This document shows, piece by piece, positions 4,418 to 62,587 of a DNA stretch of 64,000 bases; within the stretch, counting starts at the first letter, position 1; each line of letters begins with the position of its first letter. The notes beneath the pieces are model-generated. The model worked only from the letters and a program-made list of their open reading frames with translations. It ran no database searches and was not told where the DNA came from. A program made the position numbers and the translations under genes. This DNA is from Gemmatimonadales bacterium (GTDB taxonomy: Bacteria; Gemmatimonadota; Gemmatimonadetes; Gemmatimonadales; GWC2-71-9): positions 7,712 through 71,711 of the forward strand of contig JBGASX010000011.1 of NCBI GenBank assembly GCA_044229445.1, written 5' to 3'.

Positions 4418-4506
4418 GGCCGACCGCACAATCTTCCGCCGACGTTACGAACCCTCCACCAGGCCATCACAGCCCCGTCACACCCGCGCGCCTCACGAAA
4501 CCACTC

Positions 4507-5640: not shown

Positions 5641-5650
5641 ACGCCTTTGC

Positions 5651-6394
5651 CTACTCCCAGCGGAACACCCGCGAGGAGAATGCCGTGCAGAGCACGAAGA
5701 CCAGCGCAAGCGCCGCGAGATCGCCGAGGTGCGCGCTCCAGGGATCGCCGTTCCAGATGCCGGTCAGCAGCGATACCGAGTAGGTGAGCGGCATGCAGCG
5801 GGCGACCAGGTTGAGTGCCGGGGGCAGCGCCTCCACCGGGATGAAGATTCCGGAGAGCGCGATCATCGGATACAGGAACGCGCCGCCGACCGGCTGCGCG
5901 AACCGCGCGGTGGGCACCACACTCGCCACGATGAAGCCGATCGAGAGAATGCTGAAGGTGCTGATGAGGAGCGCGAGGAGGAAGCTCGCGACCGGCACCC
6001 CGGCGCCGATCGGTGCGAAGCGCCGCCCCGCGAGCATCACCGCCACCAGCGTGAGCGCCGTGAGCAGCAGCTTCACCACGACGTGGGCGGAGAGAATCGT
6101 CTGTGGCCGGAGCGGCGTCGCGCGCAGGCGCCGGAGAATCCCGCCCTCGCGGTAGACGGCGATGATCGTCACCAGCGACAGGACGGCGCTGATGCTGATC
6201 AGGAGCGCCGCGAGCACCGGCACGGGAACCTGCAGCATGCTGCTCGCGGGGGAGGCCTCGGGCTTCGGTCCGGCGGCCTTGCCGAAGATGAAATAGACCA
6301 GCACCGGCAGGACGATCGTGCCGATCGCCCCCATCGGCTCGCGCAGGAAGATCTTGAGCTCGAGCCAGACCAGTTGCCAGAGTCCGCGCAGCAT
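5651..6394 (-). CDS. ABC-2 type transporter permease
   Basis: Six hydrophobic segments with an ABC-2-like layout. It lies 10 nt downstream of the ATPase stop. I prefer ATG 6394 (MLRGLWQLVWLELKIF...) over the track start 6445, which would overlap the ATPase gene. Confidence 0.8.
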   Translation of the reverse strand: MLRGLWQLVWLELKIFLREPMGAIGTIVLPVLVYFIFGKAAGPKPEASPASSMLQVPVPVLAALLISISAVLSLVTIIAVYREGGILRRLRATPLRPQTILSAHVVVKLLLTALTLVAVMLAGRRFAPIGAGVPVASFLLALLISTFSILSIGFIVASVVPTARFAQPVGGAFLYPMIALSGIFIPVEALPPALNLVARCMPLTYSVSLLTGIWNGDPWSAHLGDLAALALVFVLCTAFSSRVFRWE

Positions 6395-12310: not shown

Positions 12311-13782
12311 GGCGGCCCCCCATGACGACCCGCTCCGCCCTGCAGGCCCTGACGCTTCCGCTCTGCCTACTCGCGCTCGCGAGCTGCGGCGACGACGGCT
12401 TCTCCCCCGGCGTCCCGGCAAAGGTCGTGATCGCCGAGAGCGGCTTCAACTTCACCGCCGTCGGGCAGAACCATCTCTTCCCCGCCGCCGCGACCGACGC
12501 GCACGGTCACCTGATCCAGATGTCGTTCATCTGGTCCAGCTCCGATCCGTCCGTCGTCCAGGTGAACGGGGACGGCCTCGCGACCGCGACCGGTCCCGGC
12601 TCCGCGATCGTGACCGTCACCGCCGGTTCGCACAGCGACACCGCCACCGTGAGCGTGCACCAGACCGCGGCCCACATCAGCGCGGTCCAGGGAGATGGCC
12701 AGGGCGGCATCGCCTCGCAGATGCTGCCGGCACCGCTGGTCGTTCAGGTGACCGACGCCCTCAACCGGCCGGTGGGTGGCGTGCTGGTGCACTTCGGGAC
12801 CAGCGACAGCGGCGCCGTCGTCGCGCCCGACACCGCGACCACCGATCGGAACGGCTTCGCCGCGACGACGCTCACCCTCGGCTCCGCGCCCGGCAACTAC
12901 GGCGTCACCGCGACCGTGCCCGGCACGGCGCTCAGCACCAGCTTCACCGCACGCACTTCCGGCCCCTTCAGCATCGACCTGCTGTACGTGAACGGGACGC
13001 CTTCGCCCGCCCAGGCCCAGGCCTTCAACCTGGCACGGCAGCGGTGGGAGTCCATCATCACCGGCGACCTCCCAGACGATTACGCCTCGCTGCCCGCGAA
13101 CAGCTGCGGCGGGAGCCCGGCGATCGACCGGCCGATCGACGACCTGCTGATCTTCGTCACCATCGCCGACATCGACGGGCCCGGCGGCATCCTCGGCCAG
13201 GCCGCCCCCTGCTTCCTGCATTCCGTCGGCGGGCTGCCGGCCATCGGCCAGATGACCTTCGACGTGGCCGACCTCGCCGTCATCGACAGCGCCGGCCTCC
13301 TCTCCGCGGTGGTGACCCACGAGATGGGGCATGTCCTGGGCTACGGCACACTCTGGAGCTCACTCGGTCTCCTCGCCAATCCCTCGAGCCAGGGCGGACT
13401 CGACCCCTCCTTCACCGGGCCGTTCGCCATTGCCGCCTTCGACTCGCTCGGCGGGATCACCCACGTGGGCGCGAAGGTGCCGGTCGAGGACCAGGGCGGT
13501 CCCGGCACCGCCGACAGCCACTGGCGCGAGACCACCTTCGGCAACGAACTGATGACCGGCTACGTGAATCTCGGATTCAATCCGCTGAGCGCGGTGAGCA
13601 TCGCCTCGATGGCGGACCTCGGATATACCGTGGACTACAGCACCGCGGATCCCTACACCATCTTCGCGCCGATCCGCCTGCCCGGCCCCGAGCTGCGCCT
13701 GCATCTCCAGAACGACGTCATCACCGGGCCGATCCGGGTGATGCCGCACCGCCGGAAGTCCGCCGGCTCCACCCGGCACTAG
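12307..13782 (+). CDS. lipoprotein: Ig-like (Big_2, Big_1-like) domains fused to a leishmanolysin-like (M8) zinc metalloprotease
   Basis: The lipobox is LCLLALASCGDD. A Big_2-like segment (FIWSSSDPSVVQVNGDGLATATGPGSAIVTVTAG) and a Big_1-like segment (LVVQVTDALNRPVGGVLVHF...TDRNGFAATTLTLG) follow. The HExxH motif is in VVTHEMGHVLGYG, with downstream ADSHWRETTFGNELMTG. The start overlaps the upstream stop by 4 nt. Confidence 0.75.
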   Translation: MRRPPMTTRSALQALTLPLCLLALASCGDDGFSPGVPAKVVIAESGFNFTAVGQNHLFPAAATDAHGHLIQMSFIWSSSDPSVVQVNGDGLATATGPGSAIVTVTAGSHSDTATVSVHQTAAHISAVQGDGQGGIASQMLPAPLVVQVTDALNRPVGGVLVHFGTSDSGAVVAPDTATTDRNGFAATTLTLGSAPGNYGVTATVPGTALSTSFTARTSGPFSIDLLYVNGTPSPAQAQAFNLARQRWESIITGDLPDDYASLPANSCGGSPAIDRPIDDLLIFVTIADIDGPGGILGQAAPCFLHSVGGLPAIGQMTFDVADLAVIDSAGLLSAVVTHEMGHVLGYGTLWSSLGLLANPSSQGGLDPSFTGPFAIAAFDSLGGITHVGAKVPVEDQGGPGTADSHWRETTFGNELMTGYVNLGFNPLSAVSIASMADLGYTVDYSTADPYTIFAPIRLPGPELRLHLQNDVITGPIRVMPHRRKSAGSTRH

Positions 13783-52845: not shown

Positions 52846-53160
52846 TTCGTGTGTCGGACCTCGCCACAAATCCTCGCGCAACATCAATTCGTGACCCTGA
52901 CGCACTCGTTCGCGCACCAAGCGGGACGATTCGGGGAGCGCGCGGCGCATCGAGACAGCAAGAAGCGCGCATTTCCTGCCTGCGTGCGCAACTCGCTGAC
53001 CACTAAAGACTTTTCGTGGACCGATGCATTCGATTCGTGATCGCGTGAGCACCGTTCGCGACCCGGGCACGAGCATTCGCGACCCGGAGAGGATCATTCG
53101 CAGCGTGGAGACGAGCATTCGTGATTCGCACCAGAACGTTCGGACCCCGACGCTCGCATT
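52846..53160. repeat. degenerate 21-bp-periodic tandem array (core TTCGYGACCC)
   Basis: TTCG cores lie at 53013, 53034, 53055, 53076, 53097, 53118 and 53139, exactly 21 bp apart. Further cores lie at 52846, 52888, 52909 and 52930, in multiples of 21, offset by one nt from the first set. No convincing ORF crosses the region. Confidence 0.75.
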
Positions 53161-53343
53161 TATGCATTCGTCGTCCGTGTTATGCATTTTTGCCGCGCCT
53201 CACACAATGAATTGTTCGCGCACCCCGCTCTGGCACACCCGTTGCTTCTCCCCCCTCCGGCCGTGTGGTGGTTGAGACACCCGCGGACCATTGCCGAAGG
53301 AACCTGTGCACTCGCCGTCTCAACCGGCGGTGTCATACGCCCG

Positions 53344-54054
53344 ATGGGCGGGGAGGGTCATATGGATGGGACATTGCAGGTGCAGCTCGCCATGGAGGTT
53401 CGCCTGGTCGACTTCTTCCGGGCCTACCCCTTTGGCGATGGACCGGCCGACGAAGTTGCGGCGCGGTTCAAGGCGAAGGTGGAGCGTCAGCAGGTGCTGG
53501 TGGCCACGCAGCAGGATGGCGAGGCCACGCGTGCGGCCCAGGTCGGGAAGTACAACGACCTGCGGCAGGAGATCATCCGGCTGCCGGCCCGTCATCTGGC
53601 CGGGATCGCCGCGGCGATCGAAGTGGAGAATCCGGCGCTCGCGGCGGCCATCGGGAAGTCGCTTCACGGACTGACCGGTCAGAAGTTCCTGGCGGCGGTG
53701 AAGTCGGTGGCGAGCACGCTCCAGGCGGAACACGATGTGCTGCGGGCGCATGGCATGTCGGAGGAGACGCAGCCGACTCTCGCTGCTCTGCTGGCGGAGT
53801 ATGAGCAGGCCGTGAGCGAGGCCAACGCCGGTCGTCGGGCGCATACCGGTGCGCGTGCGGAAATGGTTGCGCTGGGCAGGGAACTGATGGTGCTGGTGCG
53901 GCAACTCGATGGGCTGGTGATCTTCCACTTCCGTGACAAGCCCGACGTGCTGGGCGCGTGGAAGAGTGCCCGCAACATCGCCTGGCCGGTGCCGGAGTCG
54001 GCGAAGCCGGTGCAGTTGCCGGGGGCGGTGAAGGATCAAGAGCAGCCGAAGTGA
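53344..54054 (+). CDS. hypothetical helical protein
   Basis: Candidate starts are ATG 53344 and ATG 53362; the latter has GGGGAGGG upstream. The predicted product is Ala/Glu/Arg-rich and helical. No family was recognised. The track start 53182 lies in the AT-rich repeat region. Confidence 0.5.
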   Translation: MGGEGHMDGTLQVQLAMEVRLVDFFRAYPFGDGPADEVAARFKAKVERQQVLVATQQDGEATRAAQVGKYNDLRQEIIRLPARHLAGIAAAIEVENPALAAAIGKSLHGLTGQKFLAAVKSVASTLQAEHDVLRAHGMSEETQPTLAALLAEYEQAVSEANAGRRAHTGARAEMVALGRELMVLVRQLDGLVIFHFRDKPDVLGAWKSARNIAWPVPESAKPVQLPGAVKDQEQPK

Positions 54055-54117
54055 GCAGGGTGGTGCAGTAGGCGCGATTTGCTGATCGCGCGCATGACAA
54101 TGCATGGCGAAGTACCG

Positions 54118-54155
54118 AACGGCAGCCGACCCGGGGGAGTGGGGCGGCTGCCGTT
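54118..54155 (+). terminator. hairpin with short T-run
   Basis: AACGGCAGCCG (54118-54128), a 16-nt loop, CGGCTGCCGTT (54145-54155), then TGG. It lies 64 nt after stop 54054. Confidence 0.45.
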
Positions 54156-54259
54156 TGGCTCTCCCGGCTCCGGGCCCGTCCCGGGGGGGGCGCCGGGAAA
54201 GCAGACCGGGGCCGAGACCTAGCAGAGTCCGGCGCTTGGTCGTATCGTATTGGCGTGCT

Positions 54260-54287
54260 TTGACGTTGTGGTCAAATGAGTTAGAAT
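54260..54287 (+). promoter_or_regulatory. sigma70-like promoter candidate (TTGACG - 16 nt - TAGAAT)
   Basis: TTGACG lies at 54260-54265 and TAGAAT at 54282-54287. It sits in an AT-rich stretch 40 nt upstream of ATG 54327. Confidence 0.45.
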
Positions 54288-54326
54288 CAATTCGGTATTT
54301 ATTCGGTTTCCAGCTGAGGCCTCTCC

Positions 54327-55079
54327 ATGGGCACCAAGACCGGGATTGAATGGACGGACGCGGTGTGGAACCCGATGACGGGGTGCACCAAGATCTCGAG
54401 CGGCTGCGATCACTGCTACGCCGAGACCGTCGCGCAGCGACGAACTCGTGATGTGTACCTCCGGCAGCTGCCTGTCAGGGACACCCCCGCGAACCGGGCG
54501 AATCCGTTCGCACCGCGGTTCTGGGAGGATCGTCTCGCAGATCCGCTGCGCTGGAAGAAGCCTCTCCGGATATTCGTCAACAGCATGTCCGATGTGTTCC
54601 ATGCCCAGTTTTCCCGCGAGATGATCGAGGCGGTATTCTCGACCATGGTCGCGGCCGACTGGCACCAGTTTCAGCTGCTGACAAAGCGCCCGGAACGTGC
54701 CCTGCGATTGGCGGACCAGCTCCCCTGGCCGGAGAACCTGTGGCTGGGCACCTCCGTGGAAAACATGGATGTGGCCCGACGAGTGGACGATCTTCGAAAG
54801 ACCCCTGCCGCTGTGAAGTTCATCAGCGCAGAGCCACTGCTGGGGCCGATGCATGACCTCGATCTCGAAAGCATCGACTGGGTCATCGGAGGTGGGGAGA
54901 GCGGTGCTGGCGCCAGACCGTGCGATCCTGCCTGGGCCGAGGGACTCAGGGATCGCTGCATCCAGGCGGGCGTCGCCTTCTTCTGGAAGCAGTGGGGCGG
55001 GTTCACTCCGAAAGCCGGCGGGCGAGTTCTCGATGGGCGGACGTGGGAGGAGTATCCTCGAGAGCTAATGACTACTTGA
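54327..55079 (+). CDS. DUF5131 / phage Gp37-Gp68 family protein (three-Cys motif)
   Basis: The N-terminus MGTKTGIEWTDAVWNPMTGCTKISSGCDHCYAE is the family hallmark (IEWTD..WNP..GC......C..CYA). The size, 250 aa, is typical. Confidence 0.85.
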   Translation: MGTKTGIEWTDAVWNPMTGCTKISSGCDHCYAETVAQRRTRDVYLRQLPVRDTPANRANPFAPRFWEDRLADPLRWKKPLRIFVNSMSDVFHAQFSREMIEAVFSTMVAADWHQFQLLTKRPERALRLADQLPWPENLWLGTSVENMDVARRVDDLRKTPAAVKFISAEPLLGPMHDLDLESIDWVIGGGESGAGARPCDPAWAEGLRDRCIQAGVAFFWKQWGGFTPKAGGRVLDGRTWEEYPRELMTT

Positions 55080-55974
55080 AGGGGATCTCGATTTGGCCTA
55101 GTCCGTCGACCTGCTTCCGCGCCCAGTCAGCGATCTTCTCACCGGCCGGATGATTGGTTGCAAAGAGCATCCTGTAGAGCCCCCGCCTGCCAACCTGCAT
55201 GACGTCGAAGAGCTTGAAGGCTTTGGCCCACCTGGTCCTCAACTGCCGTAGGTAGAGATCCTCCAGTTGGCGCTTGCAGTCCTGACTCCGGGCCTCGGTG
55301 AGCCGACCAGCCAAAATCTGCTTCCAGTCGTCCGAACCGAAGAATGCGGTCACGATCGCCTCATGCCCGGGGGGCATGTCGCGGTAGGGCATGAGGCGGT
55401 TTAGGCCCATTTCCAGCGGGAAGAGGACATACAAGTCGATACTCTTGTGCCCCTGACCCATCAACGCCTGAACTGTCGACCAGGGGAGCTGGCGAGGAGC
55501 CTCGATATCCGCGAAGACGAGCAGGTAGTCGAGCTGATGGCAGGACGCGAGCAGCCTCGGCAGGAGCCGATTCGCGTCGCCGGTCTCGATATGTACTCTC
55601 GAAGGGGGAACCACGCATCGACCGGCTGCGATCGCGGCCTCGACACGCGCCTTCAGTGCCTGATGATCAGCCTGATCGAGATTGACGAGGAACGCTTCGT
55701 CGAAGGAGAGCTCGGGATGCAGCGTTCCCCGGCTCGCGAGCACACGAAGCGCACTGCCCTCGATCTCTTCCTTGCTTCCCCGGATGACGTTAAGCCCGGG
55801 CCCCGCAAAGAGATCGATGTACCGCCGGTGACGCTTCTTCTCGGTCGCATCGATGGCGACCGGACAGTAGTAGTCAATGAAGGCGAGCTTCCGCTTCGCG
55901 TATTGACCAGACTCTCGCGCGGGCAGTCCGTCGCTGCCGATCGTCTGCCCATCGTCACTCTGACCTGTAGCCAT
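55072..55974 (-). CDS. three-Cys-motif partner protein TcmP-like
   Basis: YAKRKLAFIDYYCPVAIDATEKKRHRRYIDLFAGPGLNV matches the TcmP N-terminal pattern (...K...L..Y.......YIDLFAGPG). It is adjacent and convergent to the DUF5131 gene, and the 3' ends overlap by 8 nt. Confidence 0.7.
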   Translation of the reverse strand: MATGQSDDGQTIGSDGLPARESGQYAKRKLAFIDYYCPVAIDATEKKRHRRYIDLFAGPGLNVIRGSKEEIEGSALRVLASRGTLHPELSFDEAFLVNLDQADHQALKARVEAAIAAGRCVVPPSRVHIETGDANRLLPRLLASCHQLDYLLVFADIEAPRQLPWSTVQALMGQGHKSIDLYVLFPLEMGLNRLMPYRDMPPGHEAIVTAFFGSDDWKQILAGRLTEARSQDCKRQLEDLYLRQLRTRWAKAFKLFDVMQVGRRGLYRMLFATNHPAGEKIADWARKQVDGLGQIEIPFK

Positions 55975-56349
55975 TGCGCGAGCCTTTTTGCATGTGTCTC
56001 GTTCGCCCTGCGCATCGCTAGGTCAGGGGACTCTCAACGATCGACCAACTCGAGTGTAGCGTTTGGAGAGTGGAACTGAAAGAGTCAATATCCGCGGCGC
56101 CCTACGTTGCCTAGCGCTGATCCACGAGCCGCCGAGCTCCCACAGATGCCTCACAAACTTACTCCGGCTCCCCGAAAGCGCCGGCCTCATCCGCGATCAT
56201 TCGGAGATAAGTAGATGCATACGGCGCGATCTCCTTCAACGCTGTGAGCTTTTCCATCCATTGCCCCAGAACAACCCCCTGGTCGCCGACGGCGACCGCC
56301 TCCAGCCTGCATGGCCCCTGGCGCGGCAGACGTTGGATGGTACGTGGCG

Positions 56350-57675
56350 TTAGGGCGTCAGTGGCGGATCATCCATACTTGACGTCAGCTCTACATACAC
56401 AAACGCCCGGAAGACAAACTTGCTGAAATAGCAAACGTAGAGAAAATAGTATCGAAGGAGGAGAATCAAGCCCATGGCCAGGAACGCTAGCCCGGTCATG
56501 GGCCAGCTAATGCCGAGGTAGGACGGCCATTGGTTTGCGATGCCTGCGTGAACGGTGAGCCAGATGATTGTATACAGAAAGGCTAGAAAGAACGCAGCGG
56601 CTAAGTTGCGCGAGAAGCCATAGAGATTGAGCCAATTGTGGACGGAAGCAGCTAGACGAGGTGATCGCTCTGCGACATGGCAATAGGACAACCAGAAATT
56701 ATTCGTCGCAGCATCCTCGGACAACAGGCCGAATCGCTTATAGAAGAGATCGCGGTACTTCCCGATGAATGCGGTATTGAACGCCCTTCGGGTGTTGAGA
56801 GGATCCGCCAGCAATGGGGCTACAAGATCGTAGGGAGCCGCCCAGAGCCGACGCAGCACCCAACAGAGAGCTACCGCCCACGTTGGAAGCGCCCTAAGAG
56901 ATGCCTTGTATTCAGCGTCACGGCGGATGTCGGCCTCAAACCGAGGTGTCATTGGCAATGCACGACGCTTGTATCCCTTAGAAATACGGAATTGGTCCTC
57001 CTCCTGTTGCACCCAAACGTACTTGAGTATCCCAAGACTGACTTGGATGAGAATTGCAATCAGGAAGGCGGCAGAAATCCAATCAGCGGCGAGATCGAAC
57101 TTCAGAGAGCTGCTAGGACGGTGCAGATAGAGAAAAGCATACTCAAGATACCGGCACACGAGGTAGAACAGGGACCAGGCAAAAGCCCCACGAACGAACC
57201 AACCCGTTGGCTCGGAAAACGGCGTATATCCATCATCTTCAAGACGAAGAAGGATTTCATAGGGATAACCGTACCCCTTGAACACAAGAATCCGGTCAAT
57301 AACCAATGAAGAGAACGATGCAACCACATGACCGGTAACGTAAAAGCCGACGAGAAGAGCCAAAGCCAAGGCAAGTGCTACTACGAGGTTAGGCGATGTG
57401 AGATCTGGGTAGAGTAACCGGAAGGTGTTGAGTGCAGGGGTAGCAAGTTGCACATTCGTGCCAGCCGCTGAAGCGCGTAGCTCAAAGAACAGCGCGCAAA
57501 GCCAGAGTGTGCCACCAGGCACGACGTACCCGAGGAGGTCACTGAGCGTTATAGTGAAGCTTGGCTTTCCGCCTATCTCAGCGCCACGACGATCCATGAG
57601 AGCCTCACGAAAGAGGGCAATCCTCACTAGCCACCTGACCTCTCCTAACCTGCCTTCTGCTGCACTAATCAGCAA
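56350..57675 (-). CDS. orphan multi-pass membrane protein, low-GC gene
   Basis: 441-aa ORF with a TTG start; an alternative ATG 57597 gives MDRRGAEIGG.... There are at least 7 hydrophobic segments. Codon usage is AT-rich, unlike its neighbours. No family was recognised. Confidence 0.6.
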   Translation of the reverse strand: MLISAAEGRLGEVRWLVRIALFREALMDRRGAEIGGKPSFTITLSDLLGYVVPGGTLWLCALFFELRASAAGTNVQLATPALNTFRLLYPDLTSPNLVVALALALALLVGFYVTGHVVASFSSLVIDRILVFKGYGYPYEILLRLEDDGYTPFSEPTGWFVRGAFAWSLFYLVCRYLEYAFLYLHRPSSSLKFDLAADWISAAFLIAILIQVSLGILKYVWVQQEEDQFRISKGYKRRALPMTPRFEADIRRDAEYKASLRALPTWAVALCWVLRRLWAAPYDLVAPLLADPLNTRRAFNTAFIGKYRDLFYKRFGLLSEDAATNNFWLSYCHVAERSPRLAASVHNWLNLYGFSRNLAAAFFLAFLYTIIWLTVHAGIANQWPSYLGISWPMTGLAFLAMGLILLLRYYFLYVCYFSKFVFRAFVYVELTSSMDDPPLTP

Positions 57676-57819
57676 GCCAGCACCGTCAGCTCACAGCTCA
57701 CTCTTTGTTAGGTCGTCTTTGCCCACGGTCGCCCCATCTCCTTTTCATACCATTCCATCCCGCCGATGTGACACCCCCACCCAGAATCGCCCTTCTCCCC
57801 CCGCCCGATTCCGCGTTTC

Positions 57820-57847
57820 TTGACCTCCTCGATTTTCGGTGTATGTT
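57820..57847 (+). promoter_or_regulatory. promoter candidate (TTGACC - 16 nt - TATGTT)
   Basis: TTGACC lies at 57820-57825 and TATGTT at 57842-57847, 37 nt upstream of ATG 57884. Confidence 0.35.
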
Positions 57848-57883
57848 CGGTTCGTCGCCGATCACTCCGGACTCGAGGGCCCC

Positions 57884-58045
57884 ATGACCACCGCCGATAA
57901 GCCCCAGCTCAGCCCCACCCGCTATCAGCCGTCCAACCCCTTGACCGGCAACAACATCCGGGTCTGCCCCGAGTGCGCCGGCCCGGTCGTCCGCAACTCC
58001 GGCTGCATCTCCTGCCGGCAGTGCGGCTGGGGGAAGTGCGGGTGA
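57884..58045 (+). CDS. small Cys-rich zinc-ribbon-like protein (53 aa)
   Basis: The sequence is MTTADKPQLSPTRYQPSNPLTGNNIRVCPECAGPVVRNSGCISCRQCGWGKCG. It carries CPxC ... CxxCxxC ... C. The track start is GTG 57839. Confidence 0.5.
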   Translation: MTTADKPQLSPTRYQPSNPLTGNNIRVCPECAGPVVRNSGCISCRQCGWGKCG

Positions 58046-58134
58046 GGAACCGAAGGGCCGAACGGCGTCGTAGGGCAGGCCTCCACGCCTACCCGTTCGG
58101 GACGACTACCGACCCAGAGCACAGCGAGCGCCCC

Positions 58135-58665
58135 ATGTCCGACCTGGCCAACCCGATCTCCGACAGCGCCCAGCAGGCCACGGCCTACACCGCCGCCATC
58201 CTCGCCGCACTCGGCACCCGCGACCCGATGCAGGTGCTCCGCGAGACGCCCGCCGCGCTCCGGCTCACCATCGCCGGCCGCAGCGCCGAGCAGCTCGGCC
58301 GCCCGGAGGCGCCGGGCAAATGGTCGGTGCGCCAGGTGGTGCAGCACCTCGCCGATTCCGAACTGGTCGGCGGCTTCCGCTACCGCATGGTGCTCGCCCA
58401 CGACCGGCCGATGATCCAGGGCTATGACCAGGACCGCTGGGCGGAACGGCTCCGCTACGACGAGGCCGACCTCGACACCGCCATCGCCGACTTCACCACG
58501 ATGCGTCAGGGCAACATCCGGCTGCTGCTGCGTGCGACGCCCGCCGATCGCGAGCGGGTGATGGTCCACGCCGAACGGGGCGAGGAGAGCCTCGCGCACA
58601 TGATCCGGATGTACGCCGGCCACGACCTGGTCCACCTCCGGCAGATGGCGCGGATCCTGGGCTGA
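58135..58665 (+). CDS. DinB_2-like (DinB/YfiT superfamily) metal-dependent protein
   Basis: ATG 58135. His-containing helices WSVRQVVQHLADSELV and HMIRMYAGHDLVHLRQM are present. The size, ~176 aa, is typical. Confidence 0.7.
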   Translation: MSDLANPISDSAQQATAYTAAILAALGTRDPMQVLRETPAALRLTIAGRSAEQLGRPEAPGKWSVRQVVQHLADSELVGGFRYRMVLAHDRPMIQGYDQDRWAERLRYDEADLDTAIADFTTMRQGNIRLLLRATPADRERVMVHAERGEESLAHMIRMYAGHDLVHLRQMARILG

Positions 58666-58713: not shown

Positions 58714-59550
58714 ATGACCACAACGCAGCGCGACAAGGCCGAACGCTTCCAGGCCCTGCACCAGGGCCCCGGCGCCTTCATCATCCCCAATCCGTGGGAT
58801 GCAGGGACCGCGCGCATTCTGGCCGGTCTGGGCTTCCCCGCCCTCACCACCACCAGTGCCGGGCTCGCCTTTTCCCTCGGCCGCCCCGATGGCGCCGGCG
58901 CGGTCAGTCGTGAGGAAGCGCTCGCCAATGCGCGCGCGATCGTGGACGCCACCGACCTCCCCGTCGCCGCCGACCTCGAGAACGGCTACGGCGACGCTCC
59001 CGAAGCCGCCGCCGAGACGATCCGTCTCGCCGGCACGACGGCGGGACTGGTCGGCGGCTCCATCGAGGATGCGACCGGCAACCCCGCCCGTCCCATCTAC
59101 GACATCGCGCACGCGGTGGAACGCATCGCCGCCGCGGTCGAGGCGGCGCGCCGGCTTCCCTTCCCGTTCATGCTGGTGGCCCGCGCCGAGAACTTCCTGC
59201 ACGGCCGTCCCGACCTGGACGACACCATCCGCCGGCTCCAGGCCTTCGAGAAGGCGGGCGCCGACGCGCTCTTTGCCCCGGGCCTCACCACCGCCGAACA
59301 GATCCGCGCGGTGTGTCAGGCGGTGACCCGGCCGGTGAACGTGGTAATGGGACTCAAGGGGACGACCTTCTCCGTCGCCGAACTCGCCGAACTCGGTGTG
59401 CGCCGGATCAGCGTCGGCTCCTCGCTGAGCCGTGCCGCACTCGGCGCCTTTGTGCGCGCCGCACTGGAAATGAAGGAACACGGGACCTTCCACTACGCCG
59501 TCGACGCCCTTCCCTTCGCCGATGCCAACCGGCTGATGGGGGTGACATGA
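58714..59550 (+). CDS. isocitrate lyase / PEP mutase family protein
   Basis: FIIPNPWDAGTARILAGLGFPALTTTSAGLAFSLG, ADLENGYGD and GGSIEDA are typical of the ICL/PEPM TIM barrel. Confidence 0.8.
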   Translation: MTTTQRDKAERFQALHQGPGAFIIPNPWDAGTARILAGLGFPALTTTSAGLAFSLGRPDGAGAVSREEALANARAIVDATDLPVAADLENGYGDAPEAAAETIRLAGTTAGLVGGSIEDATGNPARPIYDIAHAVERIAAAVEAARRLPFPFMLVARAENFLHGRPDLDDTIRRLQAFEKAGADALFAPGLTTAEQIRAVCQAVTRPVNVVMGLKGTTFSVAELAELGVRRISVGSSLSRAALGAFVRAALEMKEHGTFHYAVDALPFADANRLMGVT

Positions 59551-60632
59551 TCCGCACCGACCAGATCGCCCTGCTCGACCCGCCGCCCCCGGCGCCCGCG
59601 CTCCCCGTCCTCGACGAGCGGGCCGCCCGCGGCGCGTCATTCCACGAGGTGCCGGTCAAGGCGATTCTCAATCCGCCCTCGAGCACCGGGATGGGGTTCT
59701 GGTCGCTCAACCCCTACGTCGGCTGCGAGTTCGGCTGCACCTATTGTTATGCGCGGGAAACACACCGGTGGCGGGTAGAGCGCGCCAAAAATCCCCCCTC
59801 CCCACGAAGTGGGGAGGGGCCGGGGGAGGGGGCGCCGGGGGAGGGGCTCCCACCCTGGCAGGCCTTCGAAAAGCAGATCCTGGTCAAGACCGCTGCCGCC
59901 GCGGTGCTCAAGCGCACCCTCTTCCCCGCCCGGCTCGCCGGCGCCACGCTGGTGATCGGCACCGCGACCGATCCCTACCAGCCGGCCGAACGGCGCTTCC
60001 GCCTCACCCGGGAGATCCTCGAGGCGCTGCTCGGCTGGCGCGGGCTCACGTTAGGCATCATCACCAAGTCGCCCCTGATCCTCCGCGACCTGCCGCTGCT
60101 GCAGCAGCTCGCCGAACGGCACGAGCTGTCGGTGAACATCTCCCTCGCCTCGATGAATGGGGCGCTGCTCCGCCGGATCGAGGCCCGCTCCCCGGCACCG
60201 CATGCCCGGATCCGGGCGCTCAAGGGGCTGACCGATGGCGGGATCCACGCAGGGCTGCTGGTCGCCCCGATCGTCCCCGGCATCACCGACAGTCGAGAGG
60301 CCCTCGACGCCATCATGGCGGCGGGGAAGGCGGCGGGCGCGCGCTACGTGCACGGGTCGGCGCTCCGGCTCGGGCCCGCGGCGCGGTCCCGCTTCCTTCC
60401 TCACCTCGCCGAGGAGTTCCCCGAACTCACTGCCCGCTATCGCGAGCGCTACGGCGACCGCGAGTCGCCCGGCAAGGACTACACCGAGGCGCTGAGCCGC
60501 CGGCTCCGGATGCTGCAGCAGGCCTACGGCTTCCCGCTCTCCGAGGGGATGCGCCAGAAGCAGCGCCTCGAGGGCCGGCGCCCGCGCCACGACGCCATCC
60601 CGGAAGCGACGGAGCAGTGGACCCTGTTATAG
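59547..60632 (+). CDS. radical SAM protein, SplB-like (COG1533 DNA-photolyase-like)
   Basis: ATG 59547 overlaps the upstream stop (ATGA). The CxxxCxxC motif is in LNPYVGCEFGCTYCYARE. Later blocks TDPYQPAE, GIITKSPL and SITT-like segments are present. The track start 59313 is an in-frame extension into the previous gene. Confidence 0.8.
   Translation: MIRTDQIALLDPPPPAPALPVLDERAARGASFHEVPVKAILNPPSSTGMGFWSLNPYVGCEFGCTYCYARETHRWRVERAKNPPSPRSGEGPGEGAPGEGLPPWQAFEKQILVKTAAAAVLKRTLFPARLAGATLVIGTATDPYQPAERRFRLTREILEALLGWRGLTLGIITKSPLILRDLPLLQQLAERHELSVNISLASMNGALLRRIEARSPAPHARIRALKGLTDGGIHAGLLVAPIVPGITDSREALDAIMAAGKAAGARYVHGSALRLGPAARSRFLPHLAEEFPELTARYRERYGDRESPGKDYTEALSRRLRMLQQAYGFPLSEGMRQKQRLEGRRPRHDAIPEATEQWTLL
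59795..59850. repeat. G/C-rich palindromic element inside the radical SAM gene
   Basis: CCCCTCCCCAC (59795-59805), loop GAA, GTGGGGAGGGG (59809-59819), followed by two further GGGGAGGGG copies. It is translated in frame as PSPRSGEGPGEGAPGEG. Confidence 0.8.
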
Positions 60633-60770
60633 AAGTTCCGAGTTCCGAGTTCCGAGTTCGAAAGTTGAAACTCGGCCTGGCACCCGAAGCTTGTGACCCG
60701 GAACCCGGAACCCGGAACCCGGAACCCGGAACCCGGAACCCGGAACCCGGAACTCGGAACTCGGAACTAG
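60633..60770. repeat. heptamer tandem repeats forming a long inverted repeat
   Basis: The components are (AGTTCCG)x3 at 60634-60654, a local hairpin CCGAGTT...AACTCGG at 60652-60675, (CCCGGAA)x8 at 60697-60752 and (CTCGGAA)x2 at 60753-60766. Positions 60748-60768 are the perfect reverse complement of 60634-60654. Confidence 0.9.
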
Positions 60771-60800
60771 TACCACCTCCCCCTAAACCGTGAGTTCGTC

Positions 60801-61304
60801 ATGTCGATCGCCGAATCGCTGCTCCCCGAATACGATCACGAGATGGCCATCACCCGGAAGCATCTCGAGCGCACCCCGTTCGCAGAGCTGGGCTGGAAGC
60901 CGCATCCGAAGTCGATGTCGCTGGGCCAGGTCGCCGTCCATCTCGCGGAGCTGCCGTCGTGGACCGCCGTCACGATGAAGGAGACCGAACTCGACATGAG
61001 CCCGCCGGGCGGCAGCGGCTACAAGCCGCCCGAGTTCGACTCGGTGGAGGCGTTGCTCGCCCACTTCGACCGCCACGTCTCGGAGGGACGCGCCAGCATC
61101 GCCGCCGCGAAGGACGCCGACTTCATGGTGCCGTGGACCCTCAAGGCCGGCACGTTCGAGATCTTCACCCTGCCCCGACTCGCGGTGCTCCGCACCTGGG
61201 TGATGAACCACATCATCCACCATCGCGGCCAGTTCACCGTCTACCTGCGCCTCAACGAGGTGCCGCTGCCGCAGACGTACGGGCCGTCGGCGGATGAATC
61301 GTAG
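60801..61304 (+). CDS. DinB family damage-inducible-type protein
   Basis: VAVHLAELPSW and TWVMNHIIHHRGQFTVYLRL match the classic DinB (PF05163-like) signature. Confidence 0.8.
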   Translation: MSIAESLLPEYDHEMAITRKHLERTPFAELGWKPHPKSMSLGQVAVHLAELPSWTAVTMKETELDMSPPGGSGYKPPEFDSVEALLAHFDRHVSEGRASIAAAKDADFMVPWTLKAGTFEIFTLPRLAVLRTWVMNHIIHHRGQFTVYLRLNEVPLPQTYGPSADES

Positions 61305-61313
61305 ATGAATCGT

Positions 61314-61337
61314 AGGGGCGACCGGCCGGTCGCCCCT
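61314..61337. terminator. 24-nt perfect palindrome AGGGGCGACCGGCCGGTCGCCCCT
   Basis: It lies between stop 61304 and start 61349. It belongs to the same GGGGCGACC...GGTCGCCCC family as 40171-40192 and 43208-43227. Confidence 0.55.
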
Positions 61338-61348
61338 GCGGACCCAAC

Positions 61349-62587
61349 GTGATGCGGCGTACGGTATTGTTCGTCGACCCCCCCGCCTTCTGCACCACGG
61401 TCGAAGGGCTGGTGGCCCCCGCGCTCCGGGAACGGCCGGTCGCGGTCGCGGCCCCGGGCGCGGACCGCGCCACGATCCTCGCGCTGTCGGCCGAAGCCCG
61501 CTCGGCGGGGATCACGCGGGGGATGACGGTGCGTGAGGCGCGGAAGCGCTGCCCCGATCTCATCCTCCGCCCGCCGAACCCGCAGCTCTACGCCCGCGCC
61601 TCCCGCGCACTCGACGAGATCCTCCGCCGCTATGCGCCGGTGATCGAGCCGAAGGGCTACGGCCACGCCTTTCTCGATCTCACCGGCACCGGCCGGCTCT
61701 TCGGCCCCGCGGTGGATGTGGCGATGCGGATCCAGCGCGAGGCCGGCGAGCGGCTCCGCATCCCGCTCGCCGCCGGCGTGGCGCAGAACAAGCTGGTGAG
61801 TCAGGCAGCATCGGACGTCGTCAAACGCCGTCACGACGACATCCTCGACATCGCCGCCGGCAGCGAGGCCTCCTTCCTCGCCCCCGAACCGGTGACCCTG
61901 CTCCCCGAGCTCGGCGAGAAGATGAAGAGCCGGCTCGACGACTATCAGCTCGAGTGGATCCACGAGATCCAGACGATCGGCGATCACGCCCTCGCCTCCG
62001 TCTTCGGCCCGCCCGGCCGGCTCCTCGGCCAGCACGCGCAGGGGATCGACCCCCGCCCCGTGCTGCCCCCCGCGGTGAAGGCGGAGTTCCGCGCGGCGCA
62101 CACCCTCGCGAGCGACACCAACAACCTCACCGAACTGCACCGCGTGCTCCGTCACCTGACCGACCGGCTCGGCAGCCGGCTCCGCGCCCGCCACCTCGCG
62201 GCCCGGCGGATGACGGTCCACCTCGCCTACACCGACTACACCACGGCGAAGCGCAGCGTGCCGCTCGGCTTCGCGGCGCTGGATGTGGAGCTGTGGGAGG
62301 CGGCGCGCCGCGCCTTTGCACTCGCCCAGGAACGGACCGTCGCGATCCGCGCCGTGGGCGTCGTGGTAGATCGCTTCCTGGAGGCGGACCTGCAGCTCGA
62401 GCTGTGGACGGGAGTACCGAGTACCGAGTACCGAGTCCCGAGTGCAACGGCCGTCGATTCCGTACTCGGAACTCGGAACTCGGAACTCGGTACTGAACAC
62501 CGTCCTCGCCCCAGAGACGGAGCTCTTCAGACCGCGCTCGACCGCATCCGCACCCGCTGGGGGACGCGGGGCGTGAAAGTGGGATAG
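61349..62587 (+). CDS. Y-family DNA polymerase homologue lacking catalytic Asp-Glu (ImuB-like)
   Basis: The Y-family layout is present (LFVDPPAFCTTVE, LAAGVAQNKLVSQAAS, LLPELGEKMKSRL). The SIDEAFLD motif is replaced by GYGHAFLD. A clamp-binding-like motif QLELW is present. The C-terminal ALDRIRTRWG block lies after an inserted repeat. Confidence 0.8.
   Translation: MMRRTVLFVDPPAFCTTVEGLVAPALRERPVAVAAPGADRATILALSAEARSAGITRGMTVREARKRCPDLILRPPNPQLYARASRALDEILRRYAPVIEPKGYGHAFLDLTGTGRLFGPAVDVAMRIQREAGERLRIPLAAGVAQNKLVSQAASDVVKRRHDDILDIAAGSEASFLAPEPVTLLPELGEKMKSRLDDYQLEWIHEIQTIGDHALASVFGPPGRLLGQHAQGIDPRPVLPPAVKAEFRAAHTLASDTNNLTELHRVLRHLTDRLGSRLRARHLAARRMTVHLAYTDYTTAKRSVPLGFAALDVELWEAARRAFALAQERTVAIRAVGVVVDRFLEADLQLELWTGVPSTEYRVPSATAVDSVLGTRNSELGTEHRPRPRDGALQTALDRIRTRWGTRGVKVG
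62413..62494. repeat. heptamer-based imperfect inverted repeat inside the Y-family polymerase gene
   Basis: The components are (AGTACCG)x3 at 62413-62433, AGTCCCG at 62434-62440, a 20-nt spacer, CGTACT, (CGGAACT)x3 at 62467-62487 and CGGTACT at 62488-62494. The CGGAACT unit is the same as at 60748-60768. Confidence 0.9.

What the first reader, a model, noticed from the sequence alone, without database searches (positions are those of the whole stretch)
54160..57830. Lower-GC island: convergent DUF5131(Gp37/Gp68)-TcmP pair plus an orphan 7+ TM protein, a candidate uncharacterised accessory system
GC drops clearly here compared with the flanks; lines within the 56350..57675 gene count 25/60 and 36/60 G+C, against ~40/60 elsewhere.
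The island holds three genes:
- A DUF5131 protein with the IEWTD..WNP..GC-x7-C-x2-CYA three-Cys N-terminus.
- A TcmP-like protein (YIDLFAGPG), convergent to it, with 3' ends overlapping by 8 nt (55072-55079).
- A very AT-rich gene for a multi-pass membrane protein, upstream of tcmP on the same strand, with no family I recognise.
Established knowledge: DUF5131 and TcmP are a recurrent, sporadically distributed gene pair of unknown function, first noted in phages.
Inference: the compositional signature, the phage-linked family and the orphan membrane partner fit a horizontally acquired nucleic-acid modification or defence-type module. No integrase, tRNA or flanking direct repeats were seen.
Basis: partly seen in the sequence, partly recalled or inferred. 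Interest (0 to 1): 0.65.

Follow-up and report, generated by a model that had tools for sequence, protein, structure and literature searches.

The report
DUF5131–TcmP pair plus unrelated membrane gene
The low-GC stretch holds two separate things: a known but functionally untested two-gene enzyme pair (a radical-SAM-like DUF5131 and its methyltransferase-fold partner TcmP, already listed as phage-defence candidate PDC-M41), and next to it a separately acquired membrane-protein gene that does not belong to the pair.

Summary
54.25–58.25 kb is the only part of the 64-kb window where 1-kb GC falls below 0.63. It contains three intact genes:
- DUF5131: PF07505, 308 bits.
- TcmP: TIGR04474, 110 bits against a cutoff of 53. 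It is convergent with DUF5131, with an 8-nt overlap of the 3' ends.
- A 415–441-aa membrane protein with no Pfam, NCBIfam or PADLOC match.

Two details need correcting. The Cys motif is C-x6-C-x2-C, not x7. The membrane protein has about 4–6 hydrophobic helices, not 7+.

The three-gene-system interpretation fails:
- The membrane gene is absent from all 80 TcmP loci sampled.
- None of four loci of its own homologues has DUF5131 or TcmP.
- A syntenic relative (L005) has the pair at the same place, with other cargo in the membrane gene's slot.
- Composition has two tiers: GC3 is 0.76 for the pair, 0.58 for the membrane gene and 0.85–0.90 for core genes.

The pair is a self-contained two-gene module. 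It matches PADLOC candidate PDC-M41 (A and B), which is predicted by embedding and untested. TcmP models confidently as a class-I SAM-dependent methyltransferase fold, closest to RlmJ. In 6 loci TcmP is partnered by a canonical SPL-family radical SAM instead of DUF5131, twice inside a Pol IV–DnaE-type cassette, which points to DNA as the substrate.

Verdict: a new member of a known, uncharacterised pair, of moderate interest.

The parts
54260..54287 (+). Sigma-70-like promoter candidate (TTGACG-16-TAGAAT, 10 of 12 matches), 40 bp upstream of the DUF5131 start codon
   Evidence: Consensus scan. This is a pattern match only, not evidence of function.
54327..55079 (+). DUF5131 (Gp37/Gp68) protein, 250 aa. 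It is the radical-SAM-superfamily-like half of the pair and carries an invariant C20-x6-C27-x2-C30 motif.
   Evidence: PF07505 at 308.5 bits. PADLOC PDC-M41B at 310 bits. phrog_2045. Partial TIGR04471 rSAM_mob_pairA match, E = 9e-19. Invariant residues. dN/dS of 0.075 against L005.
55072..55079 (.). 8-nt overlap of the convergent 3' ends (stop codons of both genes)
   Evidence: Sequence read. The same convergent, overlapping layout occurs in L006/L008, in the Gemmatimonadota loci, in L094 and in Gordonia phage Fairfaxidum.
55072..55974 (-). TcmP (three-Cys-motif partner protein), 300 aa. It has a class-I Rossmann SAM-binding fold with an invariant DLFAGPG motif I.
   Evidence: TIGR04474 at 110.3 bits against a cutoff of 53. 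PADLOC PDC-M41A. AF2 model with pLDDT 93.2. The best PDB fold is RlmJ, E = 1e-7. dN/dS of 0.108 against L005.
55975..56349 (.). 375-bp spacer between TcmP and the membrane gene, and the boundary between the two compositional tiers
   Evidence: GC is 0.605. Similarity to L005 ends at 55938.
56350..57597 (-). Separately acquired, AT-rich gene for a membrane protein of a large uncharacterised family. It is 415 aa from M27, and the ORF extends to 57675. It is not part of the pair.
   Evidence: GC 0.529 and GC3 0.577. Homologues, conserved motifs. No PDB fold match. Absent from all TcmP loci and from L005. Its homologues are AT-rich relative to their hosts.
57839..58045 (+). 68-aa Zn-ribbon ORF. 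It is the right-hand synteny anchor, conserved in L005.
   Evidence: tblastn identity of 56% to L005 and blastn identity of 78%. Resembles the C-terminus of B12-dependent ribonucleotide reductase.

Best explanation
The low-GC stretch is a composite of two independent things.

(1) 54327–55974 is a self-contained two-gene module, DUF5131 plus TcmP, in a convergent layout with overlapping 3' ends. DUF5131 is a radical-SAM-superfamily-type enzyme whose cluster-binding motif is expanded to CX6CX2C. TcmP is a class-I Rossmann SAM-binding protein with a nucleic-acid methyltransferase fold.

The most likely working model is that the two act together on a nucleic acid, most probably DNA. TcmP would bind SAM and present the target nucleotide. 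DUF5131 would carry out Fe-S/SAM radical chemistry, producing or reversing a base modification. The module moves between genomes and phages and is a conflict-system candidate (PADLOC PDC-M41). In this lineage it has been resident long enough to be shared with a relative at the same locus.

(2) 56350–57597 is an unrelated, more recently acquired AT-rich membrane-protein gene. It occupies a variable slot beside the pair.

What is shown: the family memberships, the pairing statistics, TcmP's fold, the partner swap, the synteny, and the non-association of the membrane gene. What is inferred: Fe-S/SAM chemistry, DNA as the substrate, and the defence role.
For: Families:
- PF07505, TIGR04474 and PDC-M41A/B all hit.

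Pairing:
- DUF5131 is adjacent in 67 of 80 TcmP loci, in three gene orders, across Gemmatimonadota, Chloroflexota, Acidobacteriota, Planctomycetota, archaea and others.
- No third family recurs among 122 neighbouring ORFs from 25 loci.

TcmP:
- The model has pLDDT 93.
- The best folds are RlmJ, TYW4/TYW2 and RsmD-like methyltransferases.
- Motif I (DLFAGPG) is invariant.

DUF5131 as a radical-SAM type:
- RadicalSAM.org lists it as Megacluster-5-2, next to the MJ0683-like and SPL groups (PMC9477430).
- It matches TIGR04471 at E = 9e-19.
- Its NPxTGC...GCxxCYA motif aligns with the canonical motif of the window's own radical SAM protein, differing by a 3-residue insertion.
- In 6 TcmP loci the partner is instead a canonical CX3CX2C SPL-family radical SAM.

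DNA link:
- The alternative partner belongs to the SPL family.
- L023 has a Pol IV–TcmP–rSAM operon followed by the start of a DnaE-type gene at the end of the locus. L024 has the complete Pol IV–TcmP–rSAM–DnaE operon.
- Phage DUF5131 genes sit next to DNA methyltransferases.

Conflict or mobile link:
- PDC candidates were defined by being embedded in BREX, DISARM or type I RM loci.
- Fairfaxidum gp42/gp43 lie between the integrase and the immunity repressor.
- Some loci have defence or mobile-element neighbours.

Selection and synteny:
- Purifying selection, with dN/dS of 0.08–0.11.
- Synteny with L005.

Membrane gene unrelated:
-.
Against: - No experiment exists for this pair. Nothing functional turned up in four literature searches, and PDC systems are explicitly untested.
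- DUF5131 lacks the canonical CX3CX2C motif. It has no PDB sequence relative.
- This TcmP has 'DIEAP' where N-methyltransferases have (D/N)PP(Y/F), so methyl transfer is not assured.
- TcmP's closest solved folds act on RNA, not DNA.
- Most neighbours in the 25-locus census are housekeeping genes, and enrichment for defence genes was not quantified against a background.
- dS between the window and L005 is saturated for the pair (about 1.7) and higher than for the flanks (0.7–0.9). Independent insertion at the same hotspot therefore cannot be excluded.
Confidence: 0.55

Rival explanations
1. The pair is a DNA-damage repair or tolerance module, not a defence system. DUF5131 would act like spore photoproduct lyase, directly reversing a DNA lesion by radical chemistry. 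TcmP would be the lesion-binding or base-flipping partner, and the module would cooperate with translesion polymerases.
For: - TcmP's alternative partner in 6 loci is an SPL-family radical SAM.
- In L023 and L024 that pair lies between a Pol IV-like gene and a DnaE-type polymerase gene in one compact operon.
- In the window and in L005 the pair lies 4–5 kb from an Rv2578c/PA0069-family radical SAM gene and a Pol IV gene.
- SplB-like radical SAM enzymes are known SOS-linked components (PMC3765255).
- DUF5131 is grouped with the SPL and MJ0683-like families.
Against: - Only 2 of 80 TcmP loci have a Y-family polymerase within 10 kb, and both of those carry the SPL-type partner, not DUF5131.
- The proximity in the window and L005 can be explained by shared ancestry.
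- The pair has a sporadic, mobile distribution. It is carried in the lysogeny slot of a temperate phage and was found embedded in RM/BREX/DISARM loci.
- A SAM-binding methyltransferase-fold partner is not needed by known SPL enzymes.
Confidence: 0.25
2. One reading: DUF5131, TcmP and the membrane protein form one horizontally acquired three-gene accessory or defence system.
For: - The three genes are adjacent, with the membrane gene 375 bp upstream of tcmP on the same strand.
- All three are below the genomic GC.
- No terminator was detected between them.
Against: - The membrane gene is in 0 of 80 TcmP loci.
- 0 of 4 loci of its homologues have DUF5131 or TcmP.
- The syntenic relative L005 has two different small genes in its place.
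- GC3 is 0.58 for the membrane gene against 0.76 for the pair, so they have separate compositional histories.
- Membrane-gene homologues are AT-rich singletons in unrelated contexts.
- There is no PADLOC hit.
Confidence: 0.04
3. The pair is a housekeeping RNA-modification system acting on rRNA or tRNA. This would be analogous to RlmJ, or to the TYW1 (radical SAM) plus TYW2/TYW4 (Rossmann SAM enzymes) wybutosine pathway.
For: TcmP's best structural matches are RlmJ, TYW4, a TYW2-like protein and RsmD/YhhF, which are all RNA-modifying enzymes.
Against: - The phylogenetic distribution is patchy.
- The genomic contexts differ even among Gemmatimonadota.
- The pair is present in phages and on viral contigs.
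- Its GC is atypical.
- The alternative partner is SPL-type and sits next to DNA polymerases.
Confidence: 0.1

Closest known systems
PADLOC phage-defence candidate PDC-M41 (A = TcmP-like, B = DUF5131), i.e. the TIGR04474 / PF07505 'three-Cys-motif protein plus partner' pair
   Same: Both components match (M41B at 310 bits, M41A at 59 bits; TIGR04474 and PF07505 both above their cutoffs) and the genes are adjacent. It is a two-gene module with no obligatory third gene.
   Different: The layout here is convergent with overlapping 3' ends. That layout is seen in 8 of 67 paired genome loci (all Gemmatimonadota) and in some phage and viral loci; the common layout is co-directional. Motif IV of this TcmP clade reads DIEAP, where more distant members have DPTG. 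The system itself has never been tested experimentally.
Spore photoproduct lyase and the SplB-like / MJ0683-like / Rv2578c-family radical SAM 'DNA repair photolyases'
   Same: DUF5131 is in the same RadicalSAM.org megacluster. It shares the NPxxGC...GCxxCYA motif context. An SPL-family enzyme replaces DUF5131 as TcmP's partner in 6 loci.
   Different: DUF5131 has CX6CX2C rather than CX3CX2C. It is shorter (250 aa), does not reach any SPL-family HMM, and has no PDB sequence relative. Known SPL enzymes work without a methyltransferase-fold partner.
RlmJ (23S rRNA m6A2030 methyltransferase) and related class-I nucleic-acid methyltransferases (RsmD/YhhF, TYW2/TYW4)
   Same: TcmP's predicted fold matches best here (Foldseek E = 1e-7, TM about 0.5). 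It has the glycine-rich motif I (DLFAGPG).
   Different: Identity is only 12–14%. There is no sequence-level match to any PDB chain. The DPPY catalytic motif is absent. The substrate is unknown.
Radical SAM mobile pair (TIGR04471 protein A plus TIGR04470 protein B)
   Same: DUF5131 has a significant partial match to protein A (67.8 bits). The window's Rv2578c-like radical SAM protein (59547–60629) has a partial match to protein B (106 bits).
   Different: Both scores are far below the equivalog cutoffs (355 and 410). The two genes are 4.5 kb apart and are not a pair here. DUF5131's actual partner is TcmP.

Membership tests
PF07505 DUF5131 (Gp37/Gp68) | Full-length match to the family HMM above the gathering score | tested here: met
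   308.5 bits against 28.9, covering residues 4–244 of the protein and positions 1–243 of 243 in the profile.
PF07505 DUF5131 (Gp37/Gp68) | Conserved N-terminal three-Cys motif | tested here: met
   C20, C27 and C30 are invariant in 29 sequences. The spacing is x6/x2.
TIGR04474 TcmP | HMM score above the curated cutoff | tested here: met
   110.3 bits against 53.
TIGR04474 TcmP | Encoded next to a three-Cys-motif protein | tested here: met
   It is adjacent and convergent to DUF5131 with an 8-nt overlap. The same adjacency holds in 67 of 80 loci.
PADLOC PDC-M41 | Both components A and B present and adjacent | tested here: met
   M41A at E = 1.3e-16 and M41B at E = 2.1e-93.
PADLOC PDC-M41 | Anti-phage activity | not testable with these tools
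   PDC systems are untested candidates. I found no later test of M41.
Radical SAM superfamily (for DUF5131) | Canonical CX3CX2C cluster motif | tested here: not met
   The motif is CX6CX2C. hhalign places a 3-residue insertion relative to the window's canonical radical SAM protein.
Radical SAM superfamily (for DUF5131) | Detectable homology to bona fide radical SAM families | tested here: inconclusive
   TIGR04471 matches at E = 9e-19 over residues 62–222 but is sub-threshold. hhalign gives 54% probability over only 20 columns. It is listed as a subgroup by SFLD and RadicalSAM.org.
Radical SAM superfamily (for DUF5131) | Partial TIM-barrel fold, [4Fe-4S] binding, SAM cleavage | not tested
Biochemistry is needed.
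Class-I SAM-dependent methyltransferase (for TcmP) | Rossmann methyltransferase fold with a glycine-rich motif I | tested here: met
   AF2 pLDDT of 93. Foldseek finds RlmJ at E = 1e-7 and 38 hits at E <= 1e-3, nearly all of them SAM-dependent enzymes. DLFAGPG is invariant.
Class-I SAM-dependent methyltransferase (for TcmP) | (D/N)PP(Y/F/W) motif IV of amino-methyltransferases | tested here: not met
   After strand beta-4 the sequence is FADIEAP. Only D156 is nearly invariant.
Recently acquired genomic island | Atypical composition | tested here: met
   It is the only stretch of the window below 0.63 GC. z is -3.9 for the pair and -8.9 for the membrane gene.
Recently acquired genomic island | Integrase, tRNA or direct-repeat boundaries | tested here: not met
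   There are no tRNAs in the window, no convincing flanking repeats and no integrase among the local ORFs.
Recently acquired genomic island | Absent from the same site in relatives | tested here: inconclusive
   The pair is present at the syntenic site in L005, while the membrane gene is absent there and replaced by other low-GC cargo. Only one syntenic relative was available.
   0 of 80 TcmP loci, 0 of 4 loci of membrane-protein homologues, and none on viral contigs.

The most novel reading that the evidence does not exclude
TcmP defines a previously unrecognised class of two-enzyme DNA-processing systems. In these, a SAM-binding methyltransferase-fold subunit works with an interchangeable SPL-clade radical SAM subunit: either DUF5131 with CX6CX2C, or a canonical SPL-like enzyme. 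Together they install or reverse a DNA base modification or lesion. One branch has been recruited into Pol IV–DnaE translesion cassettes and the other into phages and defence loci. The Gemmatimonadota copy in this window would be a member of the DUF5131 branch.
Probability: 0.25. Interest if true: 0.7.

Novelty: new member of a known kind. Interest (0 to 1): 0.35.

Why it matters
DUF5131–TcmP is widespread, is carried by phages and is already catalogued as PDC-M41, yet nothing in the searched literature shows what it does. This instance adds no new architecture. Three comparative results from this work do sharpen the hypothesis:
- TcmP confidently has a nucleic-acid methyltransferase fold.
- Its partner can be swapped for a canonical SPL-family radical SAM, sometimes inside a translesion-polymerase operon.
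- No third gene is needed.

These results point experiments at DNA as the substrate and offer tractable test cases, such as Gordonia phage Fairfaxidum gp42/gp43. Separating out the membrane gene also prevents a false three-gene 'system' from entering catalogues. It flags a large membrane-protein family (more than 1,000 clusters at 50% identity) that has no Pfam model.

Tried and rejected
- Three-gene system: rejected by co-occurrence and synteny tests.
- The gene upstream of DUF5131 (53182–54054, really about 230 aa) as a partner. It has paralogues flanking the pair in L006/L008. However, it is absent from the other 79 TcmP loci, and three of its own contexts lack the pair. Rejected.
- Sequence searches of DUF5131 and TcmP against the PDB, with single sequences and with profiles, found nothing usable.
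- Fold search of the membrane protein (pLDDT 76.5) against the PDB gave no match better than E = 1. Ten family members, including long ones, have no Pfam domain.
- TcmP fold search against viral structures gave only generic weak methyltransferase hits.
- Pfam scan of ORFs around the pair on viral contig L094 was uninformative.
- Four literature searches on DUF5131, TcmP, Gp37Gp68, PF07505, PDC-M30/M41 and the PDC candidates found only catalogue or annotation mentions and no functional study.
- Search for island boundaries (tRNA, direct or inverted repeats, terminators) found nothing convincing.
- L010 has a solo TcmP with no detectable partner, so no third partner type was found.
- dS-based dating of the pair against the flanks was attempted, but dS is saturated, so it is not decisive.

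Full report
**1. What is in the sequence**

The region holds three intact ORFs:
- 54327–55079 (+), 250 aa.
- 55072–55974 (−), 300 aa.
- 56350–57675 (−), 441 aa. The database gene call starts at M27 and gives 415 aa.

The first two genes converge, and their stop codons overlap by 8 nt at 55072–55079.

GC in 1-kb windows averages 0.693 (sd 0.018) outside the region. It falls below 0.63 only at 54251–58250. The drop has two tiers:

| Genes | GC | GC3 |
|---|---|---|
| DUF5131 and TcmP | 0.61–0.63 | 0.757 (both) |
| Membrane gene | 0.529 | 0.577 |
| Neighbouring core genes | about 0.69–0.72 | 0.85–0.90 |

The window has no tRNA. There are no convincing flanking repeats and no integrase among the local ORFs. 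A sigma-70-like promoter candidate lies 40 bp upstream of the DUF5131 start.

**2. Family calls**

- The 250-aa protein is a full-length DUF5131: PF07505 at 308.5 bits against a cutoff of 28.9. It also hits phrog_2045.
- The 300-aa protein is TcmP: TIGR04474 at 110.3 bits against a cutoff of 53. It has no Pfam model.
- PADLOC matches both genes as the two components of candidate system PDC-M41 (M41B at 310 bits; M41A at E = 1.3e-16). DUF5131 also matches PDC-M30B.
- The membrane protein matches nothing in Pfam, NCBIfam or PADLOC. It has only a weak local PHROG hit.

**3. Is the membrane protein part of the system? No.**

- The word-based search found only nine homologues at 30–36% identity. 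Four of their genomic contexts (L001–L004) contain no DUF5131 or TcmP within ±8 kb.
- Conversely, none of 80 TcmP loci drawn from one genome per species contains a homologue of the membrane protein. None was found on IMG/VR viral contigs either.
- A profile search shows that the family is in fact large: 1,024 clusters at 50% identity with E <= 1e-3, and 276 with E <= 1e-30, mostly full-length proteins of 350–420 aa.
- The family has strongly conserved motifs: DLLGYxxPG, GHxxxS, KGxGYP, TNNFW, NWxxLYxFxRN and RYYxLY.
- No Pfam domain was found in any of ten members tested. The AF2 model (pLDDT 76.5) has no PDB fold match.
- Hydropathy gives about four strong TM segments plus one or two weaker ones, and a 140-residue basic loop. 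That is not 7+ TM.
- Its homologues are also AT-rich relative to their hosts: 0.34 against 0.65 in L003 and 0.37 against 0.56 in L004. This is the behaviour of an independently moving accessory gene.

**4. Is it one island? No.**

- A relative, L005 (ENA contig; TcmP 74% and DUF5131 77% identical), has the pair at the same chromosomal position.
- The gene order in L005 is: Y-family polymerase, Rv2578c-like radical SAM, small Zn-ribbon ORF, variable slot, TcmP, DUF5131.
- Nucleotide identity over the pair is 75.6%. This is similar to the flanking polymerase (74%) and radical SAM gene (72%).
- In L005 the slot that holds the membrane gene in the window holds two other small low-GC genes.
- Beyond DUF5131 the two genomes are not syntenic.
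- Both pair genes are intact and under strong purifying selection: dN/dS is 0.075 and 0.108 against L005, and 0.084 and 0.091 against L006.
- dS is saturated for the pair (about 1.7) and higher than for the flanks (0.7–0.9). Long residence at this locus is therefore the simplest reading, but independent insertion at a hotspot cannot be excluded.
- Other Gemmatimonadota carry the pair in unrelated contexts. On longer time scales the pair is mobile.

**5. The pair as a unit**

- Of 80 TcmP loci, 67 have DUF5131 within 600 bp. In 32 the order is TcmP then DUF5131, in 27 it is DUF5131 then TcmP, and 8 are convergent. All 8 convergent loci are Gemmatimonadota.
- The convergent, overlapping layout recurs in L005, in L006 and on viral contig L094. 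L095 is also convergent, though I did not check it for overlap.
- It recurs in Gordonia phage Fairfaxidum too. There gp42 is DUF5131, and gp43, annotated 'methyltransferase', is a true TcmP (TIGR04474, 109 bits). The two genes lie between the integrase and the immunity repressor, with gp43 directly downstream of the repressor on the same strand. From my own knowledge of actinophage biology, that slot typically holds prophage-expressed defence genes. I did not test this here.
- DUF5131 alone is much more common in phages: 181 of 50,697 records. It is often next to DNA methyltransferases or replication and recombination genes.
- A census of 122 long ORFs within ±4.5 kb of the pair in 25 loci found no Pfam family in more than two loci. 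The module therefore has no obligatory third gene.
- The neighbours are a mix of housekeeping genes, mobile-element genes (integrases and transposases) and defence genes: type IIG and type IV restriction, DpdJ, BrxH, MADS and PDC-S01.

**6. What the proteins look like**

TcmP:
- It models with high confidence (pLDDT 93.2, pTM 0.91) as a class-I Rossmann SAM-dependent enzyme.
- The best solved matches are RlmJ (E = 1e-7, TM about 0.5), then TYW4, a TYW2-like protein, RsmD/YhhF and aminopropyltransferases.
- Motif I (DLFAGPG) is invariant and a GDAN motif is conserved.
- The position of the (D/N)PP(Y/F) catalytic motif reads FADIEAP in this clade. It reads DPTG in distant members.

DUF5131:
- It has no PDB sequence relative, even with a profile.
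- SFLD and RadicalSAM.org place it as Megacluster-5-2, beside the MJ0683-like (5-1) and spore photoproduct lyase (5-3) groups (PMC9477430).
- Residues 62–222 match TIGR04471 'radical SAM mobile pair protein A' at E = 9e-19, below the family cutoff.
- hhalign aligns its WNPxTGC(TKI)SxGCxHCYA motif with the SLNPYVGCEFGCTYCYA motif of the window's own canonical radical SAM protein. The difference is a 3-residue insertion.

**7. A partner swap that informs mechanism**

- Six TcmP loci that lack DUF5131 (L023, L024, L036, L048, L051, L085) have a 340-aa canonical CX3CX2C radical SAM immediately downstream of TcmP. Its best match is spore photoproduct lyase (TIGR04070, 93 bits, sub-threshold).
- In L024 the operon is: Pol IV-like Y-family polymerase, TcmP, SPL-like radical SAM, DnaE-type polymerase. 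L023 has the same first three genes, followed by the start of a DnaE-type gene at the end of the locus.
- TcmP therefore works with either of two related radical-SAM-type enzymes. This supports a radical-SAM-like catalytic role for DUF5131 and points to DNA as the substrate.
- SplB-like radical SAM enzymes are already known to be linked to SOS and translesion systems (PMC3765255).

**8. Mechanism: commitment and rivals**

- Best model (confidence about 0.55 for the whole statement). The pair is a two-enzyme, SAM-dependent, nucleic-acid-modifying module that most probably acts on DNA, is mobile and is conflict-associated (PDC-M41). The membrane gene is an unrelated neighbour.
- The composite anatomy is well supported. 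The chemistry and the biological role are inferred.
- Main rival (0.25): the pair is a lesion-reversal or repair module tied to translesion synthesis.
- RNA modification is less likely (0.1).
- The three-gene system is essentially refuted (0.04).

**9. Comparison with what is known, and novelty**

- The pair is a known entity by annotation (TIGR04474 with PF07505; PADLOC PDC-M41). No functional study turned up in the held literature. PDC systems are explicitly untested predictions from embedding in BREX, DISARM or type I RM loci.
- This locus is a new member of that known kind, in the less common convergent layout.
- The finding as written, a three-gene accessory system, is not supported.
- The residual interest lies in the uncharacterised pair itself and in the TcmP/SPL-like partner swap.

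Noticed in passing
L024:5160-11947 and L023:8698-12195: A compact operon: Pol IV-like Y-family polymerase, then TcmP (TIGR04474, 153–161 bits), then a 340-aa SPL-family canonical radical SAM, then a DnaE-type polymerase (complete in L024, only its start held in L023). The same TcmP plus SPL-like pair, without the polymerases, is in L036, L048, L051 and L085. TcmP therefore has two alternative radical-SAM-type partners.
   Followed up: partly
window 59547-62587: An Rv2578c/PA0069-family radical SAM ('DNA repair photolyase' type; 223 bits, sub-threshold; also 106 bits to rSAM_mob_pairB), a 167-aa ORF (60801–61304) and a Pol IV-like Y-family polymerase (61349–62587) form a block. The radical SAM and polymerase genes are conserved in L005. 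This fits the known link between SplB-like radical SAM enzymes and SOS/translesion systems (PMC3765255).
   Followed up: partly
window 56350-57597 and P0002-P0312: The membrane protein belongs to a large uncharacterised family (1,024 clusters at 50% identity with E <= 1e-3). The family has no Pfam model and no PDB fold match. Invariant polar residues lie in or near predicted helices. The gene copies are strikingly AT-rich relative to several hosts.
   Followed up: partly
L002:3404-4744 and L003:3844-5172: Two of the four membrane-protein homologue loci have a CNNM/CBS/CorC_HlyC gene 2–3 kb upstream, although they come from hosts of very different GC. This may be coincidence.
   Followed up: no
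window 53055-53121: A 21-bp tandem repeat (3.2 copies, consensus TTCGCGACCCGGACACGAGCA) lies in a lower-GC (about 0.60) intergenic stretch. It is upstream of the approximately 230-aa hypothetical gene at 53362–54054.
   Followed up: no
window 53362-54054; L006:9463-9705 and 12477-12950: A family of hypothetical proteins of about 230 aa (37 hits; the named hits are Gemmatimonadota) lies upstream of DUF5131 in the window. Two paralogues flank the pair in L006/L008. Three other contexts lack the pair and instead hold toxin–antitoxin genes and a transposase. It is probably another accessory family that frequents variable regions.
   Followed up: yes
window 57839-58045: A 68-aa Zn-ribbon ORF resembles the C-terminal tail of B12-dependent ribonucleotide reductase (NF006417, E = 3e-7). 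It is conserved at 56% identity at the syntenic place in L005, directly upstream of a different gene in each genome.
   Followed up: no
window 54115-54158: An 18-bp-arm inverted repeat (89% complementary, 8-nt loop) lies about 60 bp downstream of the stop of the 53362–54054 gene. It is a possible terminator or regulatory hairpin between that gene and the DUF5131 promoter candidate.
   Followed up: no
L088 (Gordonia phage Fairfaxidum NC_048185) 3992-5933: gp42 (DUF5131) and gp43 (annotated 'methyltransferase', actually TcmP with a C-terminal extension of about 130 aa) are convergent with an 11-nt overlap. They sit between the integrase gp39 and the immunity repressor gp44. This is a tractable experimental model for the pair.
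   Followed up: partly
L005:8290-9530: In the syntenic relative, the slot between TcmP and the Zn-ribbon ORF holds two small low-GC genes (187 and 189 aa; GC 0.57–0.60 against 0.64 for the locus) instead of the membrane gene. This suggests a recurrent insertion hotspot beside the pair.
   Followed up: partly
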